Assembly (NCBI GenBank): GCA_045653985.1
Contig: JAZOMK010000134.1
Span: 1 to 30,949, forward strand
DNA: 30,949 nt
Reading direction: 5' to 3'
DNA from: Clostridia bacterium
GTDB lineage: Bacteria > Bacillota > Clostridia > Christensenellales > QALW01
Shown here piece by piece: positions 3,625 to 30,949 of this stretch. The translations under genes were made by a program, and so were the position numbers. The notes below the pieces were generated by a model. That model was not told the DNA's origin. It was given only the letters and a program-made list of their open reading frames with translations, and searched no databases. How positions within the stretch are numbered: the stretch's first letter is position 1; each line of letters starts with the position of its first letter.

Positions 3625-6600
3625 CTATTTATAAATGTATAATACATAATCTGTTCCGGCAGGTTTTTCAGGGAGATTATATGACGAACTTAAAAATGTG
3701 TTAAAAGTTGCTTCTGCGCTATAAGTATTATTTATCGGGTCAAACCAACGATAATGATATGTTGTGAAGCGACTAAGGTTTTTTAGTGTACCCGTTGCAG
3801 TACCGTTTTCTGAGTTTGGATTTTCAGCAACGGAAGTATCAGAGAAGTTAAAAAAGTAAATAACAATTTTACTATTGTCGGCATTTGACGCAATATTTGC
3901 AAATGCACCTTCTGAACGTGTTAAATAATCAAGTTCGTATGAAGTGCTAACTTCTGAACCGAATCTTGGCATAAGGTTCCACCAATCACCAACAGTGTCT
4001 TCGAAGAAGGTACGCATATATCCCATTTGAATTGCACTTGGATAGTTAAGGGAATCTTCCCAAGTTGCCGCCTGCTTTTCTTCAGGGGTGATGGTATCAA
4101 CTTTGTCAGTTGTGGTAGAATCTTCATCATATTCACTTAAATAACACCAGGTATCTTGCCCACCCCATGCGTATCCGAAAACACCGCCTAAATAAGAAAT
4201 CCATCCTTGTGCACGAGCACCAAAGTTTTTAGTCCAAAGATAACAATATCTGCCTTCATAATTTACGACAGGCTTACCTTGACCATATTCCATGGCATTG
4301 TATGCGTAAATGTGATTGTTGCTTTCGTTATGAAGTGAAGGAGACCATTGCATAGCATAGAAATCGTGTTCCTCTAAGGATGCAAAAGAAGAATCTCTTA
4401 CACCGCGAACATTTGAAACACCTTCCATATGTGCCGTGAGGGGACTATTATATGCATCGTATTTTGATATATATTGGGCAACGTAATGATACGGATTATT
4501 AATGTAGCTCCATTCTTTGTGTCCGTTAAAGTTGTCACGTTGCCAGAAGAAGTCATTATCAACTTCCTGTCCCATTGACCACATTACGGGGAAGGCTGAA
4601 TATCTTGCAACCCAATAGCGGCAGATGCGTTCAAGTTCTGCTTTTGCACTGTCGGAAAGGTCATACATAAGATATTCGTAAGTGCCATCGTCATTTTGTG
4701 TTGTTGGGTGCGTTGCTGTGCCTACAACTGTATCAGAGAACCCACCGAAGTTATTGATGAACGTCGTCATACTTGATGGATAGAAGAAGGATGCATTTAC
4801 GTGCGTAAGTCCTGCATCTGCAATAATTTCAAACTTTTGGTCATATTCTCTTAATGCCGATATATCCACAATAGAGATACCATCTTCAAAATTGAATTTT
4901 GCACTTAATGGTTGTGATTGAATAACGGAATAACCGTTTTGAACTCTGTTAGCAGTGATGGTTTCAACCATTTCAACAGTTTCACCGCCAAGCCCCCAAT
5001 GGGTATCTGCTAAGTAGAAGAAAGGAGTGTTATCGTCATACATAAAATATTTAACGTTTTCAACAACTTTAACTCGGCCGTGTTTGTATAAATCAAGTTC
5101 GCCTGAATATTTTGTGCAAGTTACGGTATTTGTTTGGTTGTGCAACCCTGTATTTTCACTGTCGGTACATACTGTTGTATACGACCATTGGCCCTCAGTA
5201 GGACACATAAAGCGAATGCGCCATATATCTCCACCATCCCAGAAACCTGGAACAGTATAGGTGGTTGTTCCGTTTGTGAGGATAAGGTTAACGTCAACAT
5301 CACGATAGGGGTCATCGTATTTTTTGTTTGAAATAAGTGTAATTTCGTTTGTGCGCCAGGTTTCTGCGTCCGATACACTTACAGGCTGTTCTTGATTAAC
5401 AATAGCCTCGGTAATTGAAAAATCAACAATAGCAATTTCAGCAATTTCGGTGACGTTTATTGAATGGAATCCAAACCTCCAATATTGTCCCACACCAATA
5501 TCACTTGAAAGAACTTTAATAGTGGTTCGGTACGTGTGCCAGACGTTATTTTTCGATTCATCGGCAACAGGAAAGTTTAAATAATAGTTCCCGTTATGGT
5601 CTGTTGAAAATGAAGTTTCGGTTTTTGTTCTTATCAGAGGAGTGAAGGGCATATAAACCGAATCGATGTTTCTTGCTGCTATTTTGTATTTGAAACTGAT
5701 TGTATATTCGCCTGCTCTTTTAATAAGTGGCATGATATCAAGCATTGGTGTTTGATAGTTTGCTGCGTTTTCGTTTATTTGTGCAACAAGGAACTGATTT
5801 CCGTCTTCAATTTTAAGGTCAAGCTTAATGTTATCGGATGCATCATCTAAATCAAACCAATCAGTATCGGTTATAAAATTGATACCTTCAAAAGTGCTGT
5901 TTGCCGTGCTGATTGTTTCTGTTTTTGCGGGTGTGCCAAGAACATCGCTGTCTTCTAATTCGAAAACAGAATCATTGGTATTTGTGGCTTTTGCATATTC
6001 TTTTGCGGATTTTCCGTAATTGTAAAGAGCTTTTGAAAGCTCGCCAACAGAGGCATCATTATGTTTTGCTCCAACGTATGCGCAAACATTGTATGAAACG
6101 GTACTGATTGTGTTGCCATCTTTTACAAGCTTTAACGTAAAGACTTTGTCAAACTCTGTCGCTTTTAAATCGTGGGTGTAGTATGTATATGAACCGTCGG
6201 TATTTTTTGTAAGCTCTGAACGATTGATTTTTGTGCCGTTAACGTAAACTTCTACGTTTTCATCATTAAGAAGAAGTTTGAAAAATACGTTGTTTGCATT
6301 TGAAACGTGCACGCCCAATGATTTTACTTTGTTTTCGCTATCGGTGTTGCCGATAACTTCTTTTACACCAACAGGCACGATAAAATCACTTTTATATTCA
6401 GTTATCCAATTATAACTATTCGCAAGAGAATCGGTACGATAGTCTTTATATAACTGTGATTGCGCACCGTATTCAAGCATATCTGCAAGAAGAGCTTTGA
6501 ATTTTTTGTGCTGTGATGAAGTGTAACCAAGTTCCGTTGCCGTTTTGTTTATTTGACGTTGACAATAAAGGGCAACGCTGTAATTTTCGTGTTTTGCAAG

Positions 6601-6936
6601 CAACGTGCCGTCAGAAGCAAAAAGTTCTGCGTTTATGGTGTCTGTCATACACTGTGGATTGATACCTAAGTATGAGTATTTATACATTTTTTGCGTTGAA
6701 TCATAACTTCCATTAACTTCTGTTACTTTGCCGGAAGATGATGTGAAACGCATATAAGCGTTACTTAAATCTGTATCTGAAGTTGCAAAATAATCAAGCG
6801 TAAGCGTTGAACCAAGATTAAGAACTGCACCGTTTATTTTTGAAGCAGGTTCTTCATCTTCTGCAAAAATTGTGCCTAAATTTACGCAAGAAAGCAATAA
6901 TATAAATGATAATAAAATACTTATAAGTTTCTTCAT
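3625..6936 (-). CDS. Secreted multidomain protein, 1103 aa: signal peptide + unrecognised duplicated domain + CBM-like domain + DUF5060 + DUF4038 (GH140/apiosidase-like) + C-terminal beta domain
   Basis: MKKLISILLSFILLLSCVNLGTIFA signal peptide (RBS AAGGA 8 nt before ATG 6936); 'VPGFWDGGDIWRIRFM.P.EG.W.Y.T' (DUF5060-like); 'TPFFYLADTHW', 'YWVARYSAFPVMWSMGQEVDND', 'VVNYEGRY', 'YAWGGQDTW' (DUF4038-like); clearly homologous to 20103-21887 and 21897-23609. Confidence 0.75.
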   Translation of the reverse strand: MKKLISILLSFILLLSCVNLGTIFAEDEEPASKINGAVLNLGSTLTLDYFATSDTDLSNAYMRFTSSSGKVTEVNGSYDSTQKMYKYSYLGINPQCMTDTINAELFASDGTLLAKHENYSVALYCQRQINKTATELGYTSSQHKKFKALLADMLEYGAQSQLYKDYRTDSLANSYNWITEYKSDFIVPVGVKEVIGNTDSENKVKSLGVHVSNANNVFFKLLLNDENVEVYVNGTKINRSELTKNTDGSYTYYTHDLKATEFDKVFTLKLVKDGNTISTVSYNVCAYVGAKHNDASVGELSKALYNYGKSAKEYAKATNTNDSVFELEDSDVLGTPAKTETISTANSTFEGINFITDTDWFDLDDASDNIKLDLKIEDGNQFLVAQINENAANYQTPMLDIMPLIKRAGEYTISFKYKIAARNIDSVYMPFTPLIRTKTETSFSTDHNGNYYLNFPVADESKNNVWHTYRTTIKVLSSDIGVGQYWRFGFHSINVTEIAEIAIVDFSITEAIVNQEQPVSVSDAETWRTNEITLISNKKYDDPYRDVDVNLILTNGTTTYTVPGFWDGGDIWRIRFMCPTEGQWSYTTVCTDSENTGLHNQTNTVTCTKYSGELDLYKHGRVKVVENVKYFMYDDNTPFFYLADTHWGLGGETVEMVETITANRVQNGYSVIQSQPLSAKFNFEDGISIVDISALREYDQKFEIIADAGLTHVNASFFYPSSMTTFINNFGGFSDTVVGTATHPTTQNDDGTYEYLMYDLSDSAKAELERICRYWVARYSAFPVMWSMGQEVDNDFFWQRDNFNGHKEWSYINNPYHYVAQYISKYDAYNSPLTAHMEGVSNVRGVRDSSFASLEEHDFYAMQWSPSLHNESNNHIYAYNAMEYGQGKPVVNYEGRYCYLWTKNFGARAQGWISYLGGVFGYAWGGQDTWCYLSEYDEDSTTTDKVDTITPEEKQAATWEDSLNYPSAIQMGYMRTFFEDTVGDWWNLMPRFGSEVSTSYELDYLTRSEGAFANIASNADNSKIVIYFFNFSDTSVAENPNSENGTATGTLKNLSRFTTYHYRWFDPINNTYSAEATFNTFLSSSYNLPEKPAGTDYVLYIYK

Positions 6937-6961
6937 ATAGGGCATCCTTTCGGTAAACGTT

Positions 6962-7756
6962 TTAAATTAAAAATTCATCGCCATCGTGAGCGACTGAAAC
7001 TGGATAAGGCAGACTTAAACATATTTGGATTAAGCGTTTTTCACCGTTATCAACATTCCAGCTTTCATTTATTTTTACGTGCCACTTATCAGCTACGTGA
7101 ATAAAAATAAGTTTATTAAACTTTGCTTTTTCTAAAATAGGTAATGCGGTGTCAGGACTATAGTGTGTTGCTTCACAAAGGCAAAGGTCAAAATGTTCGT
7201 CATTGGCAATTTTGGGAAAATCGGAAAAATCACTCCACAAATCACCGGTATGTAAAATCCTTTTATCTTCTTTCTTAAAATATAAAACGTATGCAAAACT
7301 GCAAGGGTCGCCTTCACATCTGCCTTTTGTTCTTAAATGTGCTGTGCGAATAGCGGTAACCGTTAAATTTTCATCATCATAAATAATTCCGTCGTCTACG
7401 GATAAAAATTCAACGATATCAGTGCTTTCGTGAAGTGCACTTATCCAGTTTTTTAATGGCTCAATGGCTGTTGCCTCAGGCAAAAACAAGGTAAAAGGAA
7501 TTTGTCTTAACAAATGATATTTACCTACTTGCTTAATAAGCCCCGAAAGACCACCTGCATGGTCATCGTGCATATGAGAAATAAAAACGGCTCTTACGTC
7601 TTTTGCGTTCAAGCCTTTTCTTCTTAAAAGAGCTTCGCAGGGGGCGCCTGCATCAACTAAATAAATAACTCCGTTATCCGTTTCATAGGCGGTAGAAGAA
7701 TTAAAACGGGAAAACGTTGAATCTCCGTGGCTTGTGCCTAATGTATAAACTCTCAT
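6962..7756 (-). CDS. MBL-fold metallo-hydrolase, RNase Z-like subgroup, 264 aa
   Basis: 'LGTSHG', 'YLVDAG', 'ISHMHDDHAGGL' (HxHxDH), 'HTGD', 'CEATHY', 'FIH' metal ligands. Confidence 0.85.
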   Translation of the reverse strand: MRVYTLGTSHGDSTFSRFNSSTAYETDNGVIYLVDAGAPCEALLRRKGLNAKDVRAVFISHMHDDHAGGLSGLIKQVGKYHLLRQIPFTLFLPEATAIEPLKNWISALHESTDIVEFLSVDDGIIYDDENLTVTAIRTAHLRTKGRCEGDPCSFAYVLYFKKEDKRILHTGDLWSDFSDFPKIANDEHFDLCLCEATHYSPDTALPILEKAKFNKLIFIHVADKWHVKINESWNVDNGEKRLIQICLSLPYPVSVAHDGDEFLI

Positions 7757-7767
7757 AAAAAATCCTT

Positions 7768-8541
7768 TTAATATAAAATATAATCAAAATCCTTTGAAGG
7801 AAATTTAACGTCAACTTTCGTTGTGGGCTGAGCTTCTTTTATACTGTATAAACAATCAGCATCGTTCATATGTACGGGAAACAGAATGGGGATGTTGGCT
7901 TCTTCACAAAGCTTTATTGCTTCATAAACACTTGAATGTCCGCAAGAACGTGTTTCGGGGGCATCGGTTGGATGTGAAGCACCTAACGTGCAATCGTGAA
8001 TTATTGCATTTGCGTTTTTGAATAAATCTTTCATATCTGCTTTGTAGGCGGTATCACCGGTTATTGCAAGAACCTTTTTACTTATTTTATCTTCAAAACG
8101 GTAGCATCTTGCGGAAACGGGATGATATGAAATACCTGCAGAAATCAAAACATCGTCATTTTCAAAAAATTCGCCTTCGTTAAGTACGATTTCTTTCGGC
8201 ATTTTTTGTCCGAGAAAAAATTTATCAAGCTGAAGAAAGTTGTACGTTCTTTTTAAAACTTCAGGCATTGTTTCAGGACCTATAAACGTTAAATCGCCAA
8301 TGTTTTTTTGTTTGGATTGCATCATAAAAAACAACAATCCCGCAAGACCAATGTAATGGTCGTGGTGCATATGGGTGAAAATAATGTACTCAATTTTTGA
8401 TATATCGGTATCTCTGTTTCTTAACTGTGTCAACACGTTGTAACCGCAATCAACAAGATATTTGCCGTTAATTAAAAAACAGGGACAATCATTGTTTTTG
8501 TCAGGAATGCTTGAGGCACTTCCTAAAAAGCGAATATTCAT
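7768..8541 (-). CDS. MBL-fold metallo-hydrolase, RNase Z/AtsA-like subgroup, 257 aa
   Basis: 'FLGSASSIP', 'LVDCG', 'FTHMHHDHYIGL', 'ITGDT', 'IHDCT', 'GHSS', 'PVH' motifs. Confidence 0.85.
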   Translation of the reverse strand: MNIRFLGSASSIPDKNNDCPCFLINGKYLVDCGYNVLTQLRNRDTDISKIEYIIFTHMHHDHYIGLAGLLFFMMQSKQKNIGDLTFIGPETMPEVLKRTYNFLQLDKFFLGQKMPKEIVLNEGEFFENDDVLISAGISYHPVSARCYRFEDKISKKVLAITGDTAYKADMKDLFKNANAIIHDCTLGASHPTDAPETRSCGHSSVYEAIKLCEEANIPILFPVHMNDADCLYSIKEAQPTTKVDVKFPSKDFDYILY

Positions 8542-9523: not shown

Positions 9524-12500
9524 ATGAAAAAATTGATTTCCATTGCTCTTGCATTGGCAATGACTCTCAGCAGCATTGCGTTTATTGGTGCATCAGCGGC
9601 AACAGAAGTACCCGAAGGATACGTATGGAGTAAAAACCTTGTTCCGTCAGAATATTCTGATTTTGACAGCCTTCAGGTTGGTACAGACCCAATCGCAACA
9701 TCAAACAACCTTATGATATATGGTGGCAGCACAAACGTAAACGTTGTTTATGATGCACAAAAAGGTAGCAACGTTCTTAATTGGACGGGTAATGCTAACT
9801 ACATTGCTCCTAGATGGAACATTGGCGGACTTTTAAAGGATGTTGCACAGGACAGAGGCTTATCTTCACTTACGGTAAAGGTTTCCGTTGATATTAAGTT
9901 GAATAACTCGGTAGATAAAACTGCAGTTGGTTCAGTAAGCAACGTTGGCGATTTTGTTTTGAATGGCGCAAACGGAGTTACCGGAATAATGCTTCAGGAA
10001 AACTTTGGTAATAAAACCGGAACATGGTATACCGTTACGGGTGAATTTACTTTAAGCGAAGCAGATATTCAGTCAATCAATATGGCTGATAATAAATATA
10101 ACTACGGTTTGGCTTTTAGCGGATTCTTTACAGGCGTGCCTTACGGTCATATTGATAACGTAACCGTTCAGGTGCTTGTCCCTGCAGGATATGATTGGAG
10201 CGACAATATTGTTCCTGCAGAGTATTCGAATTTTGATTCTCTTGCAGTTGGCACAGACCCTATTGCAACATCAAATAACTTTATGATATATGGCGGCAGC
10301 ACAAACGTAAACGTTGTTTATGATGCACAGAAAGAAAGTAATGTTCTTAATTGGACAGGTAGCGCTAACTACACTGCACCCAGATGGAACATTGGCGGTA
10401 TTTTAAAAGATTTTGCAGAAGAAAAAGGCTTAACAACTCTTAAAGTAAAAGTATCTATGGATATTAAAATGAACAGCACAGCGGCACCTGATGCAACAAA
10501 TACCGTTGGTAACGTTGGTGATTTTGTTTTAAATGGTGCAAATGGTGTTAGCGGAATAATGCTTCAGGAGAACTTTGGTAATGCAATGGGCACCTGGTTT
10601 ACCGTTACAGGTGAATTTACTTTAACTGAAGCTGATATCCAATCAATAGATATGACAGATAACAGTAAAAACTATGGTATAACCTTTAAAGGTTGGGTTA
10701 CAGGTGTACCTTACGGGCACATTGATAACGTAGTAGTTAAGGTATACGCGCCTGTTGAATTAATACCCACCCCCGAAGCTACAGTAGAACCTACAGAAGA
10801 ACCCACACCTACAGCAACAGCTACACCTACGCCCGAACCAACACCTACGCCCGAACCAACACCTTTTAATGGCTTGGTAAACGGAAATGCTGAAAACGGT
10901 ACTGAAAACTGGGGCATAATGGCAGGTAATAACGGTAGTGTAGAACAAGTTTCAGGTGGTGCAAAGGATACAGAACATTCAATTAAGTTCACACCCGGCG
11001 ACAGATTCGCCTGGGGACAGATGGGTTCAATTGCATATGACCTTACACCTCAGATAAACGCTGAAGGCGCAGGCACATATAAGCTTTCATTCTACATTAA
11101 AGCAGAAGAAGGCAAGGGTGGCTTGTTTAACGTTGGTGTTGGCTCAATGTATTGGCAGACCGGCGTTGGTGCCAAGTATGACCCCAATGACCAGACCAAA
11201 TTAACTGATGTTCCAACAGCATATGTTCTTCAACTTGTTGAAATCACAGACCAGTGGCTCAAGATTAACGTTGAGTTCGAAATAACAGAAGAATATTTGG
11301 CACAGATTGCACTTGTACACGCAGTTCGTCCTAATCAGGCAAAATTATTCTTCCGTCTTGATGGCAGCGTTGGTGCTTATAAAACAGCAGGCACAGAATT
11401 CTCATATTTTGTTGATGAAGTTGTTTTAAGCAAGAAAGAAGCAGTTCCCGTAAAGGAACTTACAAATACTGATGCTGAAAATGGTATTGAAAATTGGGGT
11501 ATAATGTACGGCCAGAACGGTTCTGTTGAACAAGTTTCAGGCGGTGCAAAGGATACAGAACATTCAATTAAGTTCACACCCGGTGAAAGATTCGCGTGGG
11601 GACAGATGGGCTCCATCGCATATGACCTTTCACCTGCAATTATTGTTGATGAAGAAAATGGTTATTTCGGTAATGGCGCAGGTAATTATGAACTTTCCTT
11701 CTATATTAAAGCAGAAGAAGGCAAGGGTGGCTTATTTAACGTTGGCGTTGGCTCAATGTATTGGCAGGTAAATGCAGGCGCAACTTATGAAGGAACAAAC
11801 AAAACAACAGTTCCAACAGCTTACTTTATTAAGCTTGTTGAAATTGATGACCAGTGGCAAAAGGTTACTGTAAGATTTGAAATTACCGATGAATATCTTG
11901 AACAGATTGCGCTTGTTCATGCGGCAAGACCTAACCAGGCAAAATTGTTCTTCCGTCTTGATGGCAGTGTTGGTGCTTATGAAACGGCAGGTAGTGAATT
12001 CAGCTATTTTGTTGACGAAGTATCAATCAAGTATATGAACGGTGTTATTGCAGGTGCGAACGTTGATGTTGGAAGCACACTTACCGTAAATTATTATGCT
12101 AAACTTACAGCAGACTATACTTCAGCACAGATGGTGTTCACACGCAATGATAAGTCCATAACAGTTGATGGTGTTCTTGAAGATGGTATGTATAAGTTTG
12201 CTTATACGGGAATCAACCCACAGTGTATGAATGATAATATTTCGGCACAGCTTATCCTTGGTGATGAAGTTCTTGACGTAATGGAAAATTACAGCGTAAA
12301 GAAATATTGTGATAATCAGGCATCAAAAACATTCTCTGAAATAGGCATTTCCGAAGAAAAGTATGAAGCACTTAAAGCCTTTATGGCAAATATGCTTATT
12401 TACGGTGCAGAAGCACAGAAGCATATGGACTATAATACTGACAATCTTGTAACTGCAAATAGTGCTTGGATTGAAGAAGCAAAAACTTCATATGAAATTC

Positions 12501-12868
12501 CCGTTGCAGATATAAACATTGAGGGCAATACTGATGTAAGCAATAAGGTATATTCAGTAACACTTACTCTTTCAAACGTAAATCAGGTTACATTTAAGTT
12601 GGTTATAACTGACGAGGTTGAAGTTTATCTTAACGGCGAAGAAGCAGAGGTTGTTGACGGTTTTGTAAGGTCAAAGGCAATCAAAGCAGCCGATTTTGAT
12701 GAAGCACAGGTTTTAACTATCAAAAAAGATGGCGGAGTAATAAGTCAGGTAGAATATGCCGTAAACGACTATATTGCCAATAAGTATAACAGTGCAACAG
12801 TTGGTGAAATCGTATGTGCACTTAACAATTACGGAAAAGCTGCTGTAAACTATAAAGCTGCACAATAA
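9524..12868 (+). CDS. Secreted multi-module protein, 1114 aa: signal peptide, 2 type-A CBM4/9-like modules, PT linker, 2 type-B CBM4/9/22-like modules, C-terminal unrecognised duplicated domain; no catalytic domain recognised
   Basis: Signal peptide MKKLISIALALAMTLSSIAFIGASA; repeats 'NLVP.EYS.FDSL.VG' x2 and 'NG(N/D)AENG.ENWGIM.G.NGSVEQV...[13 protein letters not shown]' x2; C-terminus aligns by eye with the N-terminal domain of 3625-6936. Confidence 0.75.
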   Translation: MKKLISIALALAMTLSSIAFIGASAATEVPEGYVWSKNLVPSEYSDFDSLQVGTDPIATSNNLMIYGGSTNVNVVYDAQKGSNVLNWTGNANYIAPRWNIGGLLKDVAQDRGLSSLTVKVSVDIKLNNSVDKTAVGSVSNVGDFVLNGANGVTGIMLQENFGNKTGTWYTVTGEFTLSEADIQSINMADNKYNYGLAFSGFFTGVPYGHIDNVTVQVLVPAGYDWSDNIVPAEYSNFDSLAVGTDPIATSNNFMIYGGSTNVNVVYDAQKESNVLNWTGSANYTAPRWNIGGILKDFAEEKGLTTLKVKVSMDIKMNSTAAPDATNTVGNVGDFVLNGANGVSGIMLQENFGNAMGTWFTVTGEFTLTEADIQSIDMTDNSKNYGITFKGWVTGVPYGHIDNVVVKVYAPVELIPTPEATVEPTEEPTPTATATPTPEPTPTPEPTPFNGLVNGNAENGTENWGIMAGNNGSVEQVSGGAKDTEHSIKFTPGDRFAWGQMGSIAYDLTPQINAEGAGTYKLSFYIKAEEGKGGLFNVGVGSMYWQTGVGAKYDPNDQTKLTDVPTAYVLQLVEITDQWLKINVEFEITEEYLAQIALVHAVRPNQAKLFFRLDGSVGAYKTAGTEFSYFVDEVVLSKKEAVPVKELTNTDAENGIENWGIMYGQNGSVEQVSGGAKDTEHSIKFTPGERFAWGQMGSIAYDLSPAIIVDEENGYFGNGAGNYELSFYIKAEEGKGGLFNVGVGSMYWQVNAGATYEGTNKTTVPTAYFIKLVEIDDQWQKVTVRFEITDEYLEQIALVHAARPNQAKLFFRLDGSVGAYETAGSEFSYFVDEVSIKYMNGVIAGANVDVGSTLTVNYYAKLTADYTSAQMVFTRNDKSITVDGVLEDGMYKFAYTGINPQCMNDNISAQLILGDEVLDVMENYSVKKYCDNQASKTFSEIGISEEKYEALKAFMANMLIYGAEAQKHMDYNTDNLVTANSAWIEEAKTSYEIPVADINIEGNTDVSNKVYSVTLTLSNVNQVTFKLVITDEVEVYLNGEEAEVVDGFVRSKAIKAADFDEAQVLTIKKDGGVISQVEYAVNDYIANKYNSATVGEIVCALNNYGKAAVNYKAAQ
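10766..10864 (+). repeat. Pro/Thr/Glu-rich linker (in-frame)
   Basis: PTPEATVEPTEEPTPTATATPTPEPTPTPEPTP. Confidence 0.9.
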
Positions 12869-12879
12869 GGAGAATTTTT

Positions 12880-12996
12880 ATGAAAAAAGATTATTCGACA
12901 CCTGAAGTTGATATCATATCACTTTATAATAACGACGTTTTTACGGATAGTGCCAGCGATGGTAATATAGACCTGGGCGATGAGGATATTTTATAA
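12880..12996 (+). CDS. Unannotated 38-aa small protein MKKDYSTPEVDIISLYNNDVFTDSASDGNIDLGDEDIL (YxxP-leader-type acidic peptide)
   Basis: Strong RBS AAGGAG overlapping the TAA of the upstream gene, 7 nt before ATG 12880; stop TAA 12994-12996; MKKxYxxPxV...DVxTxS pattern recalled from small peptides of Clostridia/Bacteroidota; below the ORF-track size cutoff. Confidence 0.8.
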   Translation: MKKDYSTPEVDIISLYNNDVFTDSASDGNIDLGDEDIL

Positions 12997-13064
12997 TGGC
13001 TGTTTATACGCCAAATCTTTGATTTGACTTCAAATTTTCAGTTGAAATAAGGCTTTTACCTATT

Positions 13065-13093
13065 TTGACATCAACATAGGCATTATAAATAAT
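13065..13093 (+). promoter_or_regulatory. Putative SigA promoter for the second CBM-like protein
   Basis: TTGACA (13065-13070), 17 bp, AATAAT (13088-13093). Confidence 0.5.
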
Positions 13094-13096
13094 TTT

Positions 13097-13129
13097 ATTG
13101 AAACAGTGCCTGAAAAGCACTGTTTCAAT
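13097..13129. promoter_or_regulatory. Perfect 13-bp inverted repeat (operator or 5' stem-loop)
   Basis: ATTGAAACAGTGC-ctgaaaa-GCACTGTTTCAAT; no U-tract follows on the + strand. Confidence 0.55.
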
Positions 13130-13183
13130 GCCCAATAAAAGATTTTAAGAATTAAAAACATTATTATGAATGGGGAGTTTTTT

Positions 13184-16100
13184 ATGAAAAAATTACTTTC
13201 TTTCGTACTTGCATCGATAATAGTTATTAGCAGTATTGCTGTTATCAATGCAACAAATGCACCTGACGGATACGAGTGGAGTGAAAATCTGCTTTCAGCA
13301 GAATATTCTAACTTTGATAATCTTCAGGTAGGCACGGACCCTATTGCAAATTCAAATAATTTGATGATTTATGGTTCAAGTACCGACGTAAACGTTGTGT
13401 ATGATGAACAAAAAGGAAGTAACGTTCTTAATTGGACGGGGAGTGCAAATTATCATGCTCCAAGATGGAACGTAGGCGGTCTTTTAAAAGCTTTTGCAGA
13501 ACAAAACAATTTAAAAACTCTTACCGTAAAAATTTCAGCTGATATCAAGTTAAATAATACAGTTGATAAAACTGCAACAAATACGGTAGGTAACGTAGGT
13601 GATTTTGTTCTTAATGGCGTAAACAGTCAGAGCATAATGCTTCAGGAAAACTTCGGCAATAAAATGGGCACGTGGTTTACGGTTTCCGGCGAGGTAACCT
13701 TAACTGAAGCAGATATCCAAGCTATTGATATGGCTGATAACAAGAAAAATTGCGGTATCACTTTTAGCGGTTTTGTTACGGGTAAGCCTTACGGACATAT
13801 TGATAACGTAACCGTTCAGGTGCTTGTGCCTGAAAAGGTTGAAGTTAAGCAGATGACTAACGGAAACGCTGAAAACGGCACTGAAAATTGGGGCATAATG
13901 TATGGGCAGAATGGCTCCGTTGCTCAAGTTTCAGGCGGTGCAAACGATACGGCACATTCAATTAAGTTTACACCCGGTGAAAGATTCTCATGGGGACAAA
14001 TGGGCTCCGTTGCTTATGACCTTTCACCTGCAATTATTGTTGATGAACAAAACGGATATGCAGGTAGTGGCGCTGGTAATTATGAGCTTTCGTTCTATAT
14101 CAAAGCGGAGGAAGGCAAAAGCGGAACTTTCAGTCTCGGCTTTGGCTCAATGTATTGGCAGACTGCTGCCGGTGCAAAGTATGATTCCAATGACGCAACA
14201 AAGGTAACCACAGTACCTACGGCACAGAAAATAAAGGATATTGCAATTACAGACCAATGGCAGAAGATTACGGTTCAGTTTGAGGTAACGGAAGCATTCC
14301 TCGAACAAATTGCACTTGTGCATGCGGTAAGACCTAATCAGGCAAAGCTCTTCTTCCGTATTGACGGTAGTGGTGGTGCGTATAAAACAGCAGGAAGCGA
14401 ATTCAGCTATTTCGTTGACGAAGTTGTTTTTTCTAAAAAAACAGCAACACCTGTTGTAACAGCAACACCAACAGCAACGCCAACACCGACAGTTACACCC
14501 GTTGAAACGGCAACACCAACAGCGACGCCAACAGTAACACCTGTTGTAACAGCGACGCCAACAGAAACTCCTGTTGTAACAGCAACGCCAACTCCTACCC
14601 CTACCCCAACAATAATACCAACACCTTTTGCCGGTCTTAAAAATACCGATGCAGAAAGCGGCACTGAAAATTGGGGCATAATGTATGGTCAGAATGGCTC
14701 TGTTGAACAAGTTGCAGATGGTGCAAATGGAAGTGCACATTCAATTAAGTTTACACCCGGTGAGAGATTCTCTTGGGGACAGATGGGTTCAATAGCCTAT
14801 GACATTACACCATATATTAACGAAAAAGGTGCAGGCGAGTATCAGCTTTCATTTTACGTTAAGGCTGAAACAGGCAAAGGAGGAACTTTCAGTCTCGGCT
14901 TTGGCTCAATGTATTGGCAACTTGCATCAGGTGCAAAATATGATTCCAATGATACAACAAAGGTAACAACAGTACCTACTGCACAGAAAATAAAGGATAT
15001 TGCAATTACAGACCAATGGCAGAAGATTACGGTTCAGTTTGAGGTAACGGAAGCATTCCTCGAGCAGATTGCACTTGTACACGCAGTAAGACCCAATCAG
15101 GCAAAATTGTTCTTCCGTATGGATGGAAGCAGTGCGGCGTATAAAACAGCAGGAAGTGAATTCAGCTATTTTGTTGATGAAGTAGTTCTTCTTGCAGGCA
15201 GTGAAATTCCAACACCCACACCCGTGCCAACCCCAACACCTTTTGCAGGCCTTAAAAACGGCAACGCGGAAAGCGGTACTGAAAACTGGGGCATAATGTA
15301 TGGCAATAACGGAACTATAGCACAGGTTTCAGGCGGTGCTAACAATACGGCACACTCAATTAAGTTTACACCCGGTGAGAGATTTTCATGGGGACAGATG
15401 GGCTCAATAGCCTATGACCTTACACCATATATTAACGAAAAAGGTGCTAATAAATATCAGCTTTCATTCTATATTAAGGCAGAGGATGGTAAAGAAGGTA
15501 ACTTTAATCTTGGTATCGGCTCAATGTATTGGCAGACCGGTGTCGGTGCAAAATATGATTCCAATGATACAACAAAGGTAACGACAGTACCGACAGCCTA
15601 CGTGCTTGAGGGAATTTCAATAAACGATGAATGGAAAAAAGTTGTTGTTGAATTTGAATTAACAGAAGAATATTTAGAGCAGGTTGCATTGGTGCATGCA
15701 GTAAGACCCAATCAGGCAAAGCTTTTCTTCCGTCTTGACGGAAATAACGGAGCATACAAAAAGGCAGAAAATGAATTCAGCTATTTTGTTGATGAAGTAG
15801 TTCTTCTTGCAGGTAGTGAAATTCCAACACCCACACCCGTGCCAACCCCAACACCATTTGCAGGCCTTAAAAACGGCAATGCAGAAAGCGGCACTGAAAA
15901 TTGGGGCATAATGTATGGTCAGAATGGCTCTATTGAACAAGTTGCAGGCGGTGTAAACAAAACCGCACATTCAATTAAGTTTACACCGGGCGAAAGATTC
16001 TCGTGGGGACAGATGGGTTCTGTTGCTTATGATATTACACCTTACGTAAACGAGATGGGTGCAGGCAAGTATCAGCTTTCATTCTATATTAAGGCTGAGT

Positions 16101-17137
16101 CAGGTAAGTCAGGTGCTTTTAGTCTTGGCGTAGGCTCAATGTATTGGCAGAATGCTGCCGGTGCAAAGTATGACCCCAATGATGCAACAAAGGTAACGAC
16201 AGTGCCTACTGCGTTTAAGCTAAAAGATATTAATGTAACTGACAAATGGCAACAGATAACTGTTGAGTTTGAATTGACAAAAGAGTATCTTGAACAGATT
16301 GCACTTGTGCACGCAGTAAGACCTAATCAGGCAAAAATTTTCTTCCGCCTTGACGGTAGTAATGGTGCATATAAAAAAGCAGGTAGTGAGTTCAGCTATT
16401 TTGTTGATGAGGTAGTTGTTCTTGCAGGAAAAGATATTCCCACACCAACACCTTTCGCTGGTCTAAAAAACGGCAATGCAGAAAGTGGCACTAAAAACTG
16501 GAGCGTAATGTATGGTCAGAACGGTTCAATAAAGCAAGTTAAGGATGGTGCCAACGGAACAAAGCACTCAATCAAATTTACACCGGGTGCAAGGTTTGAT
16601 TGGGGACAGATGGGCTCCATCGCATATGACATTACTCCTTATATAAATGCCAAAGGAGCAGGCGTATATAAACTGTCCTTCTACATAAAAGCTGAAGAAG
16701 GCAAAGGTGGAAAATTCAGTTTGGGTGTAGGCTCAATGTATTGGCAGACGAAAGAGGGGGCACAATATGACCCCAACAATAAAGCATTGAAAACTACGTT
16801 GCCTACCGCATATAAGATAACAGATATTGAAGTTACTGATGAGTGGCAGTTAGTTGAAGTTGAGTTCAGAATTACAAAAGATTATTTGAAGCAAATAGCT
16901 CTTGTACATGCGGCACGTCCTAACCAGGCACAAATCTTCTTCCGTCTTGACGGCAGCAGTGGAGCATATAAAGCAAAGGGCAGTGAATTCAGCTATTTTG
17001 TCGATGAGGTTGTTTTGAAAATTGACGGCAAGGATAAACCTACCGACAGCGGTGATAAATTGCCTTTAATTACGGTATGTGTTTTAGCGGCATCTGTAAT
17101 TTCAGTATGTATAATTAAAAAGAGAAAGGAAGACTAA
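13184..17137 (+). CDS. Cell-wall-anchored tandem CBM-like protein, 1317 aa: signal peptide, 1 type-A and 5 type-B modules, PT linkers, sortase-like C-terminal sorting signal (start moved to ATG 13184)
   Basis: RBS GGGGAG before [23 protein letters not shown]; five copies of 'N..AE.GT.NW..MYG.NG...QV..G' and 'ALVHA.RPNQA..FFR.DG'; C-terminus KPTDSGD + hydrophobic stretch + KKRKED. Confidence 0.78.
14222..15063 (+). repeat. 83-bp perfect direct repeat (14222-14304 and 14981-15063) between type-B modules 1 and 2
   Basis: gcacagaaaataaaggatattgcaattacagaccaatggcagaagattacggttcagtttgaggtaacggaagcattcctcga occurs twice. Confidence 0.85.
14441..14626 (+). repeat. Long Thr/Pro/Val/Ala-rich linker (in-frame)
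   Basis: [62 protein letters not shown]. Confidence 0.9.
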
Positions 17138-17898: not shown

Positions 17899-20091
17899 AT
17901 GAAAAAATACTTTGAATGTGCTGAAAAAGTAGAAAAAGAATATATATGTCCGCATTTTATTGAAGAAAGCGGACTTTCAAAAGACGAACTTGTAAAAGGC
18001 CTTGAGGAGATATACAATACGTATATTAAAACGGAGTCAATGATGCTTGTGCGTGCAAGAATGATTAAGTTCATTCTTGCAAATGCACAAATTCAGATAG
18101 ACCCTTATAATCCTTTTGCTGATAGAATAAATGAGGGTACAACGTATAATGCTTACGCTGATTGGGATGGCGTAGGTGAAATCTTGTTGCGCAATACTAT
18201 GCGTCCAAGAGTACTTGAAAAGCATATTCCCGAGCTTTTTGAAAAAAGAAATATTGCATACAGTATTGGCTGCATGACTGCTGATGCTGATTATTGGCAT
18301 ACCGTACCTTGCTGGCACGATATTTTATCACTTGGCTTTGTTGGCTTGCTTGAACGAGCAAAACAAGCAAGGGAAAAAAATGATTTAACAAAAGAACAAT
18401 ATGATTTTTATGATTCGGTAATTATAACTTACGAGGCTATTATTGATTACATAAAAAGATTATATGAAATTTCAAAAAACTATGATATTTCCGAATATAC
18501 GAATGCTTTGAAAAATATTGCTTCTAAAAAACCGGAAACACTTTACGAAGCATTGCTTACCGTATATTTATATACCACCATTGAAGAAATAGGTTGCGAA
18601 CGTGCAAGATGTCTGGGTAGAATCGATATTCATTATTATCCTTTTTATGTAAATGATTTAAAAACGGGTAAAAGTGAAGAAGATATAAAGGAACTGTTCA
18701 GATTCTTTTTCGGTAAATTTCATGCGGCACGCAGGTATGCAAATCAGCCTTTAGACCTTTGCGGCGTTGATGTTTACGGCATTAAAGGAGAAAATGAACT
18801 TACCTGGCTGATTCTGGACGTTTGGAATGAACTTGGCTTTGATAACCCAAAAGTACATATACATTGCCATAATGGTATGGATGAAAAAATCATTCCGTAC
18901 TGTATGAATCTTATACGTGATGGCAAAAACTCAATTGTATTTGTCAATGATGAAACAGTATTTAAGGCGTATGATAAAATCGGTATAAGTCAGGAAGAAT
19001 CACGATTGTATGAAGTTCTTGGCTGTTATGAACCCATTATACCGGGTGTGGAAGAACCTTGTATAGGCGGTTCGTGGCTGAATATGGCCAAGGCTATGGA
19101 GTTTTTATTTACCGGTGGTAAGGATAAAATTACGGGATATCAATTCAGCGTATCTACACCGGATACTTTTGAAACATTTGAAGATTTTTACAATGGTTAT
19201 TTAACTCAGCTTGATTATCTTGTTGACTTTGCAAAAAGCTATATTGAAATAAATTCAAGTTATAATATGCAAATAAATCCTTCACCTGTTTATTCAGCAT
19301 CAAGCTCGTATTGCATCGAAAAAGGCAAGGATATATTCAACAAAGGAGCAAAGTACACAAACACTTCAGTAAAATGCTTTGGTATTGGTACGGTTGTTGA
19401 TTCAATTTACGCGGTTAAAAAATATGTTTTTGATGAAAAAAGAATAAGCTTTTCCGAAATGAGAAAAGCTGTTCTCTCAAATTGGAACGGATATGAAGCT
19501 TTGCGGATTGAAATCAGTCGTGATAAAGAAAAATATGGCTGTGGAAATGAAAAAGTAGATAATATTGCAAAAGCAATTTATAAACATCTTTCAAAAAGTC
19601 TTACGGGTAGAAGGAACGGTAGAGAAGGTGTATGGCGAATGGGGGGAGACTCCATTGATTACTCCTTATCCTTTGGTGCTAAAGTGGCGGCAACACCTGA
19701 TGGAAGGTTTGATAAAGAAGCTTTATCAAAAAATCTTTGTGCTACTTTGGGTAAAGATATAAATGGTATAACGGCACTTATTCGTTCAGCAACAACTATT
19801 GACCATACTGATTTTTGTGATGGTATCGTACTTGATTTCTTGCTTCATCCAAGTGCTGTTTCAGGCGAAGATGGTCTTGCAGCAATGTGTGGACTGCTAA
19901 AGGTATATTTTGCACGTGGTGGACTTGCTTTGCAAGGAAATGTTTTCAGTACGGAAGATTTAATTGATGCACAAAAGAATCCCGGCAAATATCCTAGTCT
20001 CCAAGTACGTGTCTGTGGTTGGAATGAGTATTTTGACCGTATGAGTAAGGAAATGCAAGATTTCTTTATTGCACAACTGAAATCAGAATGA
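17899..20091 (+). CDS. Glycyl radical enzyme (PFL-like family), 730 aa; substrate unknown
   Basis: Cys loop 'GCYEP' (19021-19035); C-terminal glycyl radical domain 'AQKNPGKYPSLQVRVCGWNEYF' (RVCGW at 20008-20022); 'ATPDGR...LSKN', 'KYGCG...VD'. Confidence 0.92.
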   Translation: MKKYFECAEKVEKEYICPHFIEESGLSKDELVKGLEEIYNTYIKTESMMLVRARMIKFILANAQIQIDPYNPFADRINEGTTYNAYADWDGVGEILLRNTMRPRVLEKHIPELFEKRNIAYSIGCMTADADYWHTVPCWHDILSLGFVGLLERAKQAREKNDLTKEQYDFYDSVIITYEAIIDYIKRLYEISKNYDISEYTNALKNIASKKPETLYEALLTVYLYTTIEEIGCERARCLGRIDIHYYPFYVNDLKTGKSEEDIKELFRFFFGKFHAARRYANQPLDLCGVDVYGIKGENELTWLILDVWNELGFDNPKVHIHCHNGMDEKIIPYCMNLIRDGKNSIVFVNDETVFKAYDKIGISQEESRLYEVLGCYEPIIPGVEEPCIGGSWLNMAKAMEFLFTGGKDKITGYQFSVSTPDTFETFEDFYNGYLTQLDYLVDFAKSYIEINSSYNMQINPSPVYSASSSYCIEKGKDIFNKGAKYTNTSVKCFGIGTVVDSIYAVKKYVFDEKRISFSEMRKAVLSNWNGYEALRIEISRDKEKYGCGNEKVDNIAKAIYKHLSKSLTGRRNGREGVWRMGGDSIDYSLSFGAKVAATPDGRFDKEALSKNLCATLGKDINGITALIRSATTIDHTDFCDGIVLDFLLHPSAVSGEDGLAAMCGLLKVYFARGGLALQGNVFSTEDLIDAQKNPGKYPSLQVRVCGWNEYFDRMSKEMQDFFIAQLKSE

Positions 20092-29881: not shown

Positions 29882-30940
29882 TTATGCCCCCTGAGCCACC
29901 TCTGAGCCACCCCTTAAAAAGGTGTCTAATTTATCAACTTGTAGGTTCTTGTGTTGTGCAGACAAATGTGTATATATGGAAAGGGTCGTTTGTATGTCTG
30001 CGTGACCCATTTGTTCCTTTGCTGTTAGTGCATCAATACCCGCTTCAAACATAATTGTACAAAACGTATGTCTTAATTCGTGTGGTGTAAATGTATTGAT
30101 TATCATAGGAATATCTGCGCTGTTGTCGTGCTTATTTACAGCACCATCAAAACCGTATTTGATATTCAAATCCAACATATAACTTTGGTACAATCTTTTC
30201 CAAGAATCATCGGTCATCATTTTTCCCTTTGCGTTAGTTAAAACAAAGGGTGATACCCTTGGCAAGCATTTCAAATAATCAATTAATATTTGTGGTACAG
30301 AAACCACTCTTGCCTTTCCGTTCTTTGGAGCCTTAAAATCCTTTGTCTTAAAATTATAGGATTTTGTGACCGAGATTTTGTTGTTTTTGAAATCAATGTC
30401 GTTCCACTGTAGCGCAGTTGCTTCTCCACGCCTTAACCCTGATAACATCATAAGCATAGCGGAAGGCTTTGCTCTGTGATGAAATTCCATCACACGATTT
30501 CTTTCTTCTTCACTTAATGCTCTACGCTGTACTGGATCTACTGCGGATTGTGGAATTTTAAGTTTTGTCGCTGGGTTAAAAATAATAATCCTATTATCAC
30601 AAGCAAAGTCAAAAATTGCTTTGATGACCTGAACATATCCCCTTATAGTTTTTTTAGCCATAGGCTCCCCTGTATTAGGGTTTATTGCAGCAATGGAAAA
30701 AAGTATTGTCTGCAATTCAAATGGCTTTATTTGATTAATATGGGCATTTCCAAGTGCATCTATCCATATAGCTGACCTTGTTTTTAAGCAGGAATATCTA
30801 TCTGCTGACACCTCATATTTTTTAGATGTTAGCCAATGTTCCGCCCACGTTTTGAACAAATCATTGGATGCGGAAATATCAATTCCCTTTCTTAATGATA
30901 CTCTTAATTCTTCTGCCTTAATAAGTCGGATCGTAGCCAT
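29882..30940 (-). CDS. Tyrosine recombinase / phage-type integrase; probably 5'-truncated by the window edge
   Basis: Catalytic motifs 'SGLRRGEATALQWNDID' (R), 'KAPKNGKAR' (K), 'HELRHTF' (HxxR), 'MGH', 'TTLSIYTH' (Y); frame stays open to the window end. Confidence 0.95.
   Translation of the reverse strand: MATIRLIKAEELRVSLRKGIDISASNDLFKTWAEHWLTSKKYEVSADRYSCLKTRSAIWIDALGNAHINQIKPFELQTILFSIAAINPNTGEPMAKKTIRGYVQVIKAIFDFACDNRIIIFNPATKLKIPQSAVDPVQRRALSEEERNRVMEFHHRAKPSAMLMMLSGLRRGEATALQWNDIDFKNNKISVTKSYNFKTKDFKAPKNGKARVVSVPQILIDYLKCLPRVSPFVLTNAKGKMMTDDSWKRLYQSYMLDLNIKYGFDGAVNKHDNSADIPMIINTFTPHELRHTFCTIMFEAGIDALTAKEQMGHADIQTTLSIYTHLSAQHKNLQVDKLDTFLRGGSEVAQGA
29891..29911. repeat. CTGAGCCACC direct repeat pair (11-bp period) at the integrase 3' end; candidate arm-type sites
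   Basis: CTGAGCCACCtCTGAGCCACC, 53 bp from the att core. Confidence 0.6.
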
Positions 30941-30949
30941 GTCGTTCTG

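What the first reader, a model, noticed from the sequence alone, without database searches (positions are those of the whole stretch)
12880..12996. Hidden 38-aa YxxP peptide supplies in trans the motif that the paralog carries in cis: candidate undescribed domain-peptide complementation or docking system
Seen: the ORF is translationally coupled to the gene ending in the unrecognised domain (its RBS AAGGAG overlaps that gene's TAA). It encodes MKKDYSTPEVDIISLYNNDVFT-DSASDGN-IDLGDEDIL. The other protein with this domain continues directly into SV-FELEDSDVL. So domain then motif occurs twice: fused when the domain is N-terminal, split when it is C-terminal. Known: YxxP(L/V) with a late Thr is the RRE-binding leader pattern of lasso-type RiPP precursors, and I recall similar MKKxYxxP...DVxTxS peptides beside large surface proteins in Clostridia and Bacteroidota with no function known to me. 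Inference: the leader may direct export or processing by machinery encoded elsewhere, and the acidic C-terminus may complete, chaperone, metal-bridge or anchor the domain. Nine residues is a short match, so this is a hypothesis.
Basis: partly seen in the sequence, partly recalled or inferred. Interest (0 to 1): 0.88.

Follow-up and report, generated by a model that had tools for sequence, protein, structure and literature searches.

The report
Peptide precursor matching surface-protein tail
The 38-codon gene is real: it most likely encodes a leader-plus-core precursor peptide processed by enzymes elsewhere in the genome, and its acidic core is the same motif that sister surface proteins carry fused to the same domain, which hints at what this new peptide class is for.

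Summary
Observation confirmed and extended. The sORF (12880-12996) is one of four paralogs in this genome. Three of them sit 12 nt behind a gene that ends in the same ~280-aa two-Ig 'domain X'. Every other complete domain X copy carries the acidic motif [DN]-F-[DN]-L-x-E-E-D-x-L in cis.

A census of 113 copies across the genus gave:
- 54 copies with a cis tail, none with a downstream sORF;
- 53 tail-less terminal copies, 41 with the sORF.

A tree shows the cis-tail copies form one clade nested among the trans copies. The pattern is therefore essentially one gene fusion of the peptide core onto domain X, followed by radiation.

The N-terminal half (Y5-x-x-P8-x-V10 ... F21-T22) is a lasso/LPP-type RRE-binding leader. 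The genome encodes two B1-type RREs elsewhere: one with an S26-like peptidase, one with a ScmC/HprK-like P-loop protein and an NTP transferase. These enzymes co-occur with the peptides in 18 of 21 genus genomes. In other genera they lie directly beside the peptide.

The closest known system is the linear polyphosphorylated peptides (LPP; Popov et al. 2026). This scan has already noted similar scattered precursors on other DNA.

Docking of the tail onto domain X is not supported: AlphaFold2 leaves it disordered both in cis and in a read-through fusion. Function stays inferred.

The parts
9524..12868 (+). Gene for a 1114-aa secreted multi-domain protein (signal peptide, repeated CBM4_9-like modules, Pro/Thr linker, C-terminal domain X without a tail)
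12041..12865 (+). Domain X, tail-less C-terminal copy (residues 840-1114): two Ig-like sandwiches, each followed by helices, ending ...NYGKAAVNYKAAQ
   Evidence: Alignment; HMM hits; AlphaFold2 model of the paralog at pLDDT ~96; only generic tandem-Ig matches in the PDB
12867..12872 (+). Shine-Dalgarno AAGGAG overlapping the upstream TAA, 7 nt before the ATG
12880..12996 (+). 38-codon precursor-peptide gene (stop included)
   Evidence: An RNA contig of a bovine metatranscriptome spans 12510-12977.
12880..12945 (+). Predicted leader, residues 1-22. It contains Y5-S-T-P8-E-V10 (12892-12909) and F21-T22. M, Y, P and T are invariant or nearly invariant across 28 family members.
   Evidence: motif logic from PMC13381572
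12940..12951 (+). F21-T22 | D23-S24: inferred leader cleavage site after Thr, with a candidate phospho-acceptor Ser
   Evidence: Inference by analogy to the LPP motif F-E-T(-1)|x-x-S(+3). The T-[ED]-S-G pattern appears.
12946..12993 (+). Predicted core, 16 aa, net charge about -6. Residues 29-38 (12964-12993) are the N-I-D-L-G-D-E-D-I-L tail motif.
5986..6867 (-). Domain X, N-terminal copy in the 1106-aa GH140-like (DUF4038/apiosidase-like) enzyme
5938..5970 (-). Cis tail S-V-F-E-L-E-D-S-D-V-L directly after that domain copy (residues 326-336); predicted disordered
13065..13093 (+). Promoter-like site (TTGACA-17-AATAAT) between the sORF and the next gene. The stretch 13020-13141 is uncovered in the RNA run but covered in DNA runs. 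The sORF therefore appears to close the upstream transcription unit.

Best explanation
The sORF encodes a ribosomal precursor peptide of the lasso-related, cyclase-free kind recently named linear polyphosphorylated peptides (LPP).

Proposed mechanism:
1. Residues 1-22 form a leader. Its Y5-x-x-P8-x-V10 segment is bound, as an added beta-strand, by a small PqqD-type RRE encoded elsewhere (own genome contigs C71 and C50).
2. The RRE presents the peptide to a ScmC/HprK-like P-loop protein, a putative Ser kinase, with an RfbA-type NTP transferase next to it.
3. The RRE also presents it to an S26-type leader peptidase, which would cut after Thr22.
4. This releases a 16-residue, very acidic, disordered core ending in N-I-D-L-G-D-E-D-I-L.

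The gene is translationally coupled to, and co-transcribed with, a secreted protein that ends in a tail-less 'domain X'. In a sister clade of domain X copies the peptide gene was fused once onto the domain, losing stop and leader. Those proteins carry the same core as a conserved cis tail and are exported by Sec. The leader is therefore needed only for recognition, processing and export. The core is a short linear motif that acts outside the cell together with domain X surface proteins.

Shown: reality and conservation of the gene, homology of core and cis tail, single-fusion phylogeny, presence and co-occurrence of the enzyme set.
Inferred: the binding, phosphorylation, cleavage and export steps, and what the tail binds.
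For: Family and context:
- Four paralogs occur in this genome; three sit 12 nt behind tail-less domain X genes.
- The peptide HMM hits 9 of 12 sampled genus genomes, and 47 of 399 genomes (30 of 217 genera) of the class.
- M1 and P8 are invariant; Y5 and T22 are at least 90% conserved.

Census by domain X in the genus:
- 54 cis-tail copies: 0 with a downstream sORF.
- 53 tail-less terminal copies: 41 with the sORF, 12 without.
- 6 internal copies without a tail.
- MAFFT aligns the cis tails to the core with a gap over the leader.
- The tail HMM ranks the sORFs 6th-8th of 58,319 ORFs.
- The tree puts the cis copies in one clade nested in a trans grade.

Enzymes in the own genome:
- C71: RRE, NTP transferase, ScmC-like protein. 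C50: RRE, S26-like peptidase.
- RRE1 matches the lasso RRE TbiB1 (5v1u) at E 7e-6, and 9x8z_B.
- The peptidase has GISMYP / LHRI / RGDN motifs and S24/S26 neighbours.
- The 232-aa protein belongs to the ScmC family and has an SGVGKS P-loop.

Co-occurrence and synteny:
- Peptidase and ScmC-like genes are present in 18 of 21 genus genomes. They are missing exactly from G003, G127 and G192, which also lack both peptide and domain X.
- In G044 the only peptide gene is divergent from the RRE-NTP transferase-ScmC operon, and in G244 it lies ~1.4 kb from the ScmC-like gene.
- In G691 the order is domain X gene, peptide, ScmC-like (37% identity), RRE, S26 peptidase (43% identity).

Literature and expression:
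- LPP precursors carry YxxPxVLxHQxIxFETxxS, are cut after T(-1) and phosphorylated on S+3 (PMC13381572).
- An RNA contig bridges the gene end and the sORF.
Against: - No enzyme of the set lies in this window, and no ABC exporter was found next to either RRE locus.
- The Y-to-T spacing is 17 residues, against 15 in the LPP consensus. The conserved Ser is at +2, not +3.
- The kinase assignment rests on weak family matches (TIGR04249 E 0.0016; atlas score 0.98), with no PDB or Pfam-A hit.
- The NTP transferase scores as ordinary RfbA and may be housekeeping.
- Cis tails lack a conserved Ser, so any phosphorylation is not needed for the motif itself.
- 12 tail-less terminal copies have neither tail nor sORF.
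- One paralog follows a PLP enzyme, not domain X.
- Outside the genus only about 10 of 29 peptides follow a domain X gene.
- The RNA evidence comes from assembled contigs of a metatranscriptome and does not show translation.
Confidence: 0.62

Rival explanations
1. One reading: the mature acidic peptide binds directly to the tail-less domain X outside the cell, as non-covalent docking or completion of the fold. In paralogs the cis tail occupies the same site.
For: - The Rosetta-stone logic of the fusion applies.
- Coupling is tight (12-nt gap) behind 41 of 53 tail-less terminal copies.
- The pairing of a domain X gene with the peptide is ancient and reaches other genera and metagenomic relatives.
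- The tail is always placed 6-12 residues after the last helix.
Against: - In the AlphaFold2 model of domain plus cis tail, the domain is at pLDDT ~96 but the tail at 30-36, with no secondary structure.
- In the natural in-frame read-through fusion of a tail-less copy with its peptide, the core is at pLDDT 44-59 and pTM falls from 0.85 to 0.77.
- Many family peptides follow proteins without domain X.
- These are single-chain models with shallow alignments, so absence of docking is weak evidence.
Confidence: 0.2
2. The peptide is an independent secreted RiPP, such as a signal, a biofilm or capsule component, or an antagonist. Its genes merely ride behind highly expressed surface-protein genes. 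The cis tail would then be a fused remnant kept as an acidic flexible linker, with no shared function.
For: - LPP and paeninodin clusters sit in polysaccharide loci and their role is unknown.
- RRE2 and the peptidase form a conserved cassette with a Bac_transf sugar transferase and a WaaS/CpsH glycosyltransferase.
- Some paralogs follow unrelated genes.
- The fusion happened about once.
Against: - The cis motif stays conserved through a radiation of 54 surveyed copies (about 44 rows in the tree) at 45-55% domain identity. It is kept both at C-termini and internally after domain shuffling. A mere linker would not be conserved this way.
- The sORF position is immediately behind domain X genes far more often than expected for hitch-hiking.
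Confidence: 0.15
3. The ORF is non-coding chance sequence, or a regulatory upstream ORF for the next gene (13166-17137).
For: It is short, it has no database family, and it lies between two large genes.
Against: - The amino-acid sequence is conserved across genera, with four nearly fixed positions.
- It has a strong SD site coupled to the upstream stop.
- A 170-nt gap with a promoter-like site and no RNA cover lies before the next gene.
- Paralogs differ in frame relative to the upstream gene, so no recoding is involved.
Confidence: 0.02

Closest known systems
Linear polyphosphorylated peptides (LPP), lppA-K-B-S-D-N of Paenibacillus alginolyticus (Popov et al., Nat Commun 2026, PMC13381572)
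   Same: - The precursor is short, with an N-terminal Y-x-x-P-x-V leader and an F-(x)-T cleavage motif followed by Ser.
- The RRE is a discrete lasso-B1-type protein.
- The leader peptidase is S26/SipW-like.
- An HprK-like P-loop protein and an NTP transferase are present.
- There is no cyclase.
- The genes are linked to polysaccharide genes.
   Different: - Precursors are scattered (up to 12 per genome) behind surface-protein genes instead of lying inside one cluster.
- The enzymes are split over two loci.
- No MsbA-like pump was seen beside them.
- The leader is two residues longer, and the Ser is at +2.
- The core is only about 16 aa and is homologous to a protein tail.
- The host is a rumen or gut member of Clostridia, not Bacilli.
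- No modification has been shown.
Paeninodin-type and other lasso peptides with split B1/B2 (TbiB1, TfuB1 structures 5v1u, 6jx3)
   Same: The YxxPxL leader motif with a conserved Thr near the cleavage site. The RREs here match TbiB1 and TfuB1 by sequence.
   Different: No B2 transglutaminase-type peptidase in 5 genomes. No cyclase context. The cores are too short, and their Asp/Glu spacing is too inconsistent, for a threaded lasso.
Rosetta-stone gene fusions (separate partners in one lineage, fused in another)
   Same: The peptide core is a separate gene behind domain X in the ancestral grade and is fused to domain X in one derived clade.
   Different: The separate partner here is a leader-bearing RiPP-type precursor, not an ordinary protein. 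Only the post-cleavage part was retained in the fusion.
Cohesin-dockerin and other module-plus-short-tail assembly systems of gut Clostridia
   Same: An acidic short C-terminal element on secreted carbohydrate-active proteins. Some domain X proteins also carry cohesins.
   Different: The tail is 10-16 residues, has no conserved EF-hand pattern, and is predicted disordered. Canonical dockerins and cohesins exist separately in these genomes.

Membership tests
LPP (linear polyphosphorylated peptide) precursors | N-terminal [Y/W]xxPx[L/V/I] RRE-binding motif in a conserved leader, with a variable C-terminus | tested here: met
   Y5-S-T-P8-E-V10 is present. P is invariant and Y at least 90% conserved in 28 members, and the cores are variable.
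LPP (linear polyphosphorylated peptide) precursors | Consensus ...IxFET(-1)|xxS(+3) at the leader/core junction | tested here: inconclusive
   A variant, [VI]-[FLI]-T-[ED]-S-G, is found. Thr is at least 90% conserved, the Y-to-T spacing is 17 rather than 15, and Ser is at +2 (PMC13381572).
LPP (linear polyphosphorylated peptide) precursors | Discrete RRE (LppB-like) in the genome | tested here: met
   Two 86-106-aa PqqD-family proteins in G000 (C71, C50) and in all 5 genomes tested. Sequence matches to TbiB1 and to 9x8z_B.
LPP (linear polyphosphorylated peptide) precursors | SpI/SipW-like (S26) leader peptidase paired with the RRE | tested here: met
   A 145-aa protein lies directly after RRE2. 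It matches TIGR02228 at E 2e-5, has S24/S26 atlas neighbours, and has the motifs GISMYP, LHRI and RGDN. It is present in 18 of 21 genus genomes.
LPP (linear polyphosphorylated peptide) precursors | HprK-like kinase | tested here: inconclusive
   A 232-aa ScmC-family P-loop protein lies beside RRE1. There is no Pfam-A or PDB sequence hit, and it was not compared with LppK itself.
LPP (linear polyphosphorylated peptide) precursors | NTP transferase and MsbA-like exporter in the cluster | tested here: inconclusive
   An RfbA-type NTP transferase lies between RRE1 and the ScmC-like gene. No ABC exporter lies next to either locus, and a genome-wide search was not done.
LPP (linear polyphosphorylated peptide) precursors | Precursor encoded inside the biosynthetic cluster | tested here: not met
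   In this genome the precursors are remote from the enzymes. The feature is met in G044 and G691, and in G244 the peptide lies ~1.4 kb from the ScmC-like gene.
LPP (linear polyphosphorylated peptide) precursors | Multiple phosphorylation of a core Ser and RRE-dependent cleavage | not testable with these tools
   This needs expression and mass spectrometry.
Lasso peptides | B2 cysteine peptidase and ATP-dependent macrolactam cyclase; core with Gly/Ala/Ser/Cys1 and Asp/Glu7-9 plus a threaded tail | tested here: not met
   PF13471 is absent from 5 genus genomes. The acceptor spacing is inconsistent among paralogs, and the tails after it are as short as 2-7 residues.
   The tail has pLDDT 30-36 in cis and 44-59 in the read-through fusion. 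Only single-chain AlphaFold2 was used, so this is a weak test.

The most novel reading that the evidence does not exclude
The processed (possibly phospho- or glyco-modified) peptide is a detachable C-terminal tail for surface proteins. It would be exported by the RiPP route and then join domain X proteins at the cell surface, non-covalently or through its modified Ser to a wall or capsule polymer. A RiPP pathway would then serve to equip or anchor secreted carbohydrate-active enzymes. The single fusion clade would show the same function hard-wired in cis.
Probability: 0.25. Interest if true: 0.9.

Novelty: new variant of a known kind. Interest (0 to 1): 0.7.

Why it matters
The biological role of LPP-type and kinase-associated lasso-like peptides is unknown (PMC13381572).

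In this lineage the peptide core has been captured once as a conserved tail of a widespread but unnamed surface-protein domain. Elsewhere the peptide, its kinase-like protein, RRE and peptidase lie directly behind genes ending in that domain.

That gives a concrete, testable lead: these peptides work with large surface proteins of gut and rumen Clostridia, and the core motif can be studied on an ordinary secreted protein without the modification machinery.

It also defines two unannotated families: the ~280-aa two-Ig domain X, and the MKKY-x-x-PE...DV-x-T-x-SG peptides found in 30 of 217 sampled genera.

Tried and rejected
The family was traced with genome HMM searches instead.
- Pfam and NCBIfam give nothing for the peptide or for domain X.
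- Lasso peptide reading rejected: there is no B2, and the cores are unsuitable.
- EF-hand or half-dockerin reading of D-S-A-S-D-G-N-I-D-L-G-D rejected. The pattern is not kept in paralogs or cis tails, and ordinary dockerins and cohesins exist in matched small numbers.
- Stop-codon read-through or frameshift joining of peptide to the upstream protein rejected. The sORF is out of frame here, but in frame behind two stops in C86 and C103.
- Double-glycine/C39 export rejected: Peptidase_C39 is absent in 3 of 5 genomes.
- No precursor lies next to the RRE loci of G292 and G150.
- Foldseek of domain X against the PDB gave only generic tandem-Ig adhesins and Fabs, TM ~0.2.
- The third PqqD hit is a radical SAM/SPASM enzyme in an unrelated context.
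- Multiple independent fusions were looked for but not found. The tree supports about one origin, so the 54-versus-41 split must not be read as many independent events.
- Rows left out of the census: G000's own copies (reported separately), six partial matches at contig ends, matches not reaching the domain's C-end, and 4 matches the tool did not list.

Full report
**1. What is there.** Window 12880-12996 (+) is an ATG-started 38-codon ORF.
- AAGGAG (12867-12872) overlaps the TAA of the preceding 1114-aa gene (9524-12868) and lies 7 nt before the ATG.
- The preceding protein has a Sec-type signal peptide, repeated CBM4_9-like modules, and a C-terminal ~280-aa region with no Pfam or NCBIfam match. 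I call this region domain X.
- The same domain opens the 1106-aa GH140-like enzyme on the minus strand (3625-6945). There it runs on into ...SVFELEDSDVL.

**2. Is it more than chance?** Yes.
- A regex and HMM scan of the whole assembly (2.1 Mb, 465 contigs) found three more paralogs of the peptide. Two of them, on C86 and C103, start 12 nt after a gene that ends in a tail-less domain X. The fourth, on C201, follows a PLP-dependent enzyme.
- The genome holds about 17 domain X copies. Of the complete ones, six N-terminal and three C-terminal copies are followed 6-12 residues after the last helix by [DN]-F-[DN]-L-x-E-E-D-x-L. Three tail-less copies have the sORF, and one has neither.
- An HMM made only from cis tails of other genomes ranks the three sORFs 6th-8th among 58,319 six-frame ORFs of this genome. 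Ranks 1-5 and 9 are cis tails.

**3. Genus census.** Domain X matched 15 of 21 genomes of the genus. I fetched the end of every match that reaches the domain's C-terminus (plus loci) and classified 113 copies:

| Class | Copies | With downstream sORF |
|---|---|---|
| Internal, cis tail | 29 | 0 |
| Terminal, cis tail | 25 | 0 |
| Terminal, tail-less | 53 | 41 |
| Internal, no tail | 6 | not applicable |

- MAFFT aligns the cis tails to the peptide's last ~14 residues, with a gap across the leader.
- A maximum-likelihood tree of 90 full domains puts all cis-tail copies in one clade. That clade is nested within a grade of sORF-associated copies, whose nearest members include the window's own 9524-12868 copy.
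- The cis/trans exclusivity is therefore best read as one fusion of the peptide gene onto domain X, with loss of stop and leader, followed by radiation and domain shuffling. It is not many independent events.
- The motif's conservation through that radiation argues that it is functional in cis.

**4. What the N-terminal half is.**
- In 28 aligned members, M1 and P8 are invariant and Y5 and T22 are at least 90% conserved. The consensus is MKKY-x-x-PE-x-x-I-x-x-I-x-x-x-DV-x-T-x-SG.
- This is the [Y/W]xxPx[L/V] motif recognised by lasso-type RREs.
- A literature search led to Popov et al. 2026 (PMC13381572). That paper describes linear polyphosphorylated peptides. [quoted passage not shown] A SipW-like peptidase cuts after T(-1) in an RRE-dependent way. 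[quoted passage not shown]

**5. Is such machinery present?** Yes, but elsewhere in the genome.
- All five genus genomes tested have two ~86-aa PqqD-family proteins.
- In G292 one heads an RRE / RfbA-type NTP transferase / 232-aa protein operon. The other heads an RRE / 145-aa protein / Bac_transf / WaaS-CpsH glycosyltransferase operon. The second cassette is conserved in G150.
- The 145-aa protein matches archaeal-type signal peptidase I (TIGR02228, E 2e-5). It has S24/S26 neighbours in the ESM Atlas and shows GISMYP, LHRI and RGDN motifs.
- The 232-aa protein is of the ScmC family and has an SGVGKS P-loop.
- RRE1 matches the lasso RRE TbiB1 (5v1u, E 7e-6) and the entry 9x8z_B. RRE2 matches TfuB1 weakly.
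- The lasso B2 family is absent.
- The window's own genome has both loci, on C71 and C50.

**6. Linkage of peptides and enzymes.**
- Peptidase and ScmC-like genes occur in 18 of 21 genus genomes. They are missing exactly in G003, G127 and G192 (94-98% complete), the genomes with no peptide and no domain X.
- G044 and G244 have no domain X and a single peptide gene each. In G044 it has its own promoter and terminator and is divergent from the RRE-NTP transferase-ScmC operon; in G244 it lies ~1.4 kb from the ScmC-like gene.
- The widened peptide HMM hits 47 of 399 genomes (30 of 217 genera) of the class.
- In 29 loci from other genera the peptide nearly always follows a large ORF, which ends in domain X in about ten of them. 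In several the ScmC-like gene comes next.
- In G691 the order is domain X gene, peptide, ScmC-like (37% identity), RRE, S26-like peptidase (43% identity).
- Metagenomic relatives with ~31% identical domain X also have the sORF.

**7. Does the tail dock on the domain?**
- AlphaFold2 of residues 25-350 of the minus-strand protein, with a 32-row alignment, gives a confident domain (pLDDT ~96). The fold is two Ig-like sandwiches, each followed by helices. The 26 residues after it have pLDDT 30-36 and no structure.
- Foldseek finds only generic tandem-Ig folds.
- In C103 the sORF is in frame behind two TAA codons. I read these as Gly to obtain a natural single chain of tail-less domain plus peptide, and folded it with a 40-row alignment.
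- In that model the leader part reaches pLDDT ~58-71, the core 44-59, and pTM drops to 0.77.
- Within the limits of single-chain models, there is no support for a defined groove.

**8. Expression.** In a bovine metatranscriptome one contig spans 12510-12977, covering the gene end and nearly the whole sORF. Positions 13020-13141 are uncovered in RNA but covered in DNA runs, and RNA cover resumes at 13155. A TTGACA-17-AATAAT site lies at 13065-13093. This fits co-transcription with the upstream gene. It does not prove translation.

**9. Reading.**
- The sORF is a real precursor-peptide gene of an LPP-like pathway, in a dispersed arrangement: many precursors behind surface-protein genes, enzymes at two remote loci.
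- The new element is that the core equals the tail of domain X paralogs, through one ancestral fusion. The leader is thus dispensable once the core travels with a Sec substrate, and the core motif works outside the cell next to domain X.
- What the motif binds is not shown. Candidates are domain X itself, a third partner, a metal ion or a wall polymer.
- Earlier agents of this scan reported similar scattered YxxP precursors behind surface-protein genes in other genomes. The cis-tail homology was not among their notes.

Noticed in passing
window 17899-20091: A 730-aa glycyl radical enzyme (PFL-like plus Gly_radical; below every NCBIfam equivalog cut-off) sits inside a glycan-utilisation locus, next to two GH140-like genes. 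No activating enzyme is in the window.
   Followed up: no
window 13166-17137 and 9524-12868: The two giant neighbours are built from near-identical ~170-aa CBM4_9/DUF4627-like modules (six and two copies), separated by Pro/Thr linkers. Both also share an N-terminal ~190-aa module. The 1323-aa protein ends in a single hydrophobic helix followed by KKRKED, a membrane anchor without LPXTG.
   Followed up: partly
L134:3754-6132 (G292:C17) and L135:2389-4710 (G150:C34): A conserved four-gene cassette: RRE, S26-like peptidase, Bac_transf phosphoglycosyl transferase, WaaS/CpsH glycosyltransferase. It suggests the peptide pathway is tied to glycan synthesis.
   Followed up: partly
L087, L088, L092 (G150:C109, G292:C13, G304:C259): These domain X copies have two tandem cis tails separated by P-E-V-I-I-P-E-G-D-G-D. 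The spacer resembles a leader remnant (compare K-P-E-V-V-I-T-P in the C201 paralog) and may be a second fusion of a downstream peptide gene.
   Followed up: no
L003:1495-1596 (G000:C201) and L020 (G102:C6): A peptide paralog ending ...KLPFDEFD lies right after a PLP-dependent (TrpB-like fold) enzyme gene. The arrangement is syntenic in two genomes, has a clean terminator, and is unrelated to domain X.
   Followed up: partly
window 6962-8541: Two tandem metallo-beta-lactamase-fold genes (264 and 257 aa) lie between an AraC regulator and the GH140-like enzyme.
   Followed up: no
window 29882-30949: A phage-type integrase gene lies at the window edge.
   Followed up: no
window 12930, 12954, 12966: All three strain variants seen inside the sORF in public runs fall on third codon positions: N17K, A25 synonymous and N29K. 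The two replacements are at sites that vary among paralogs.
   Followed up: partly
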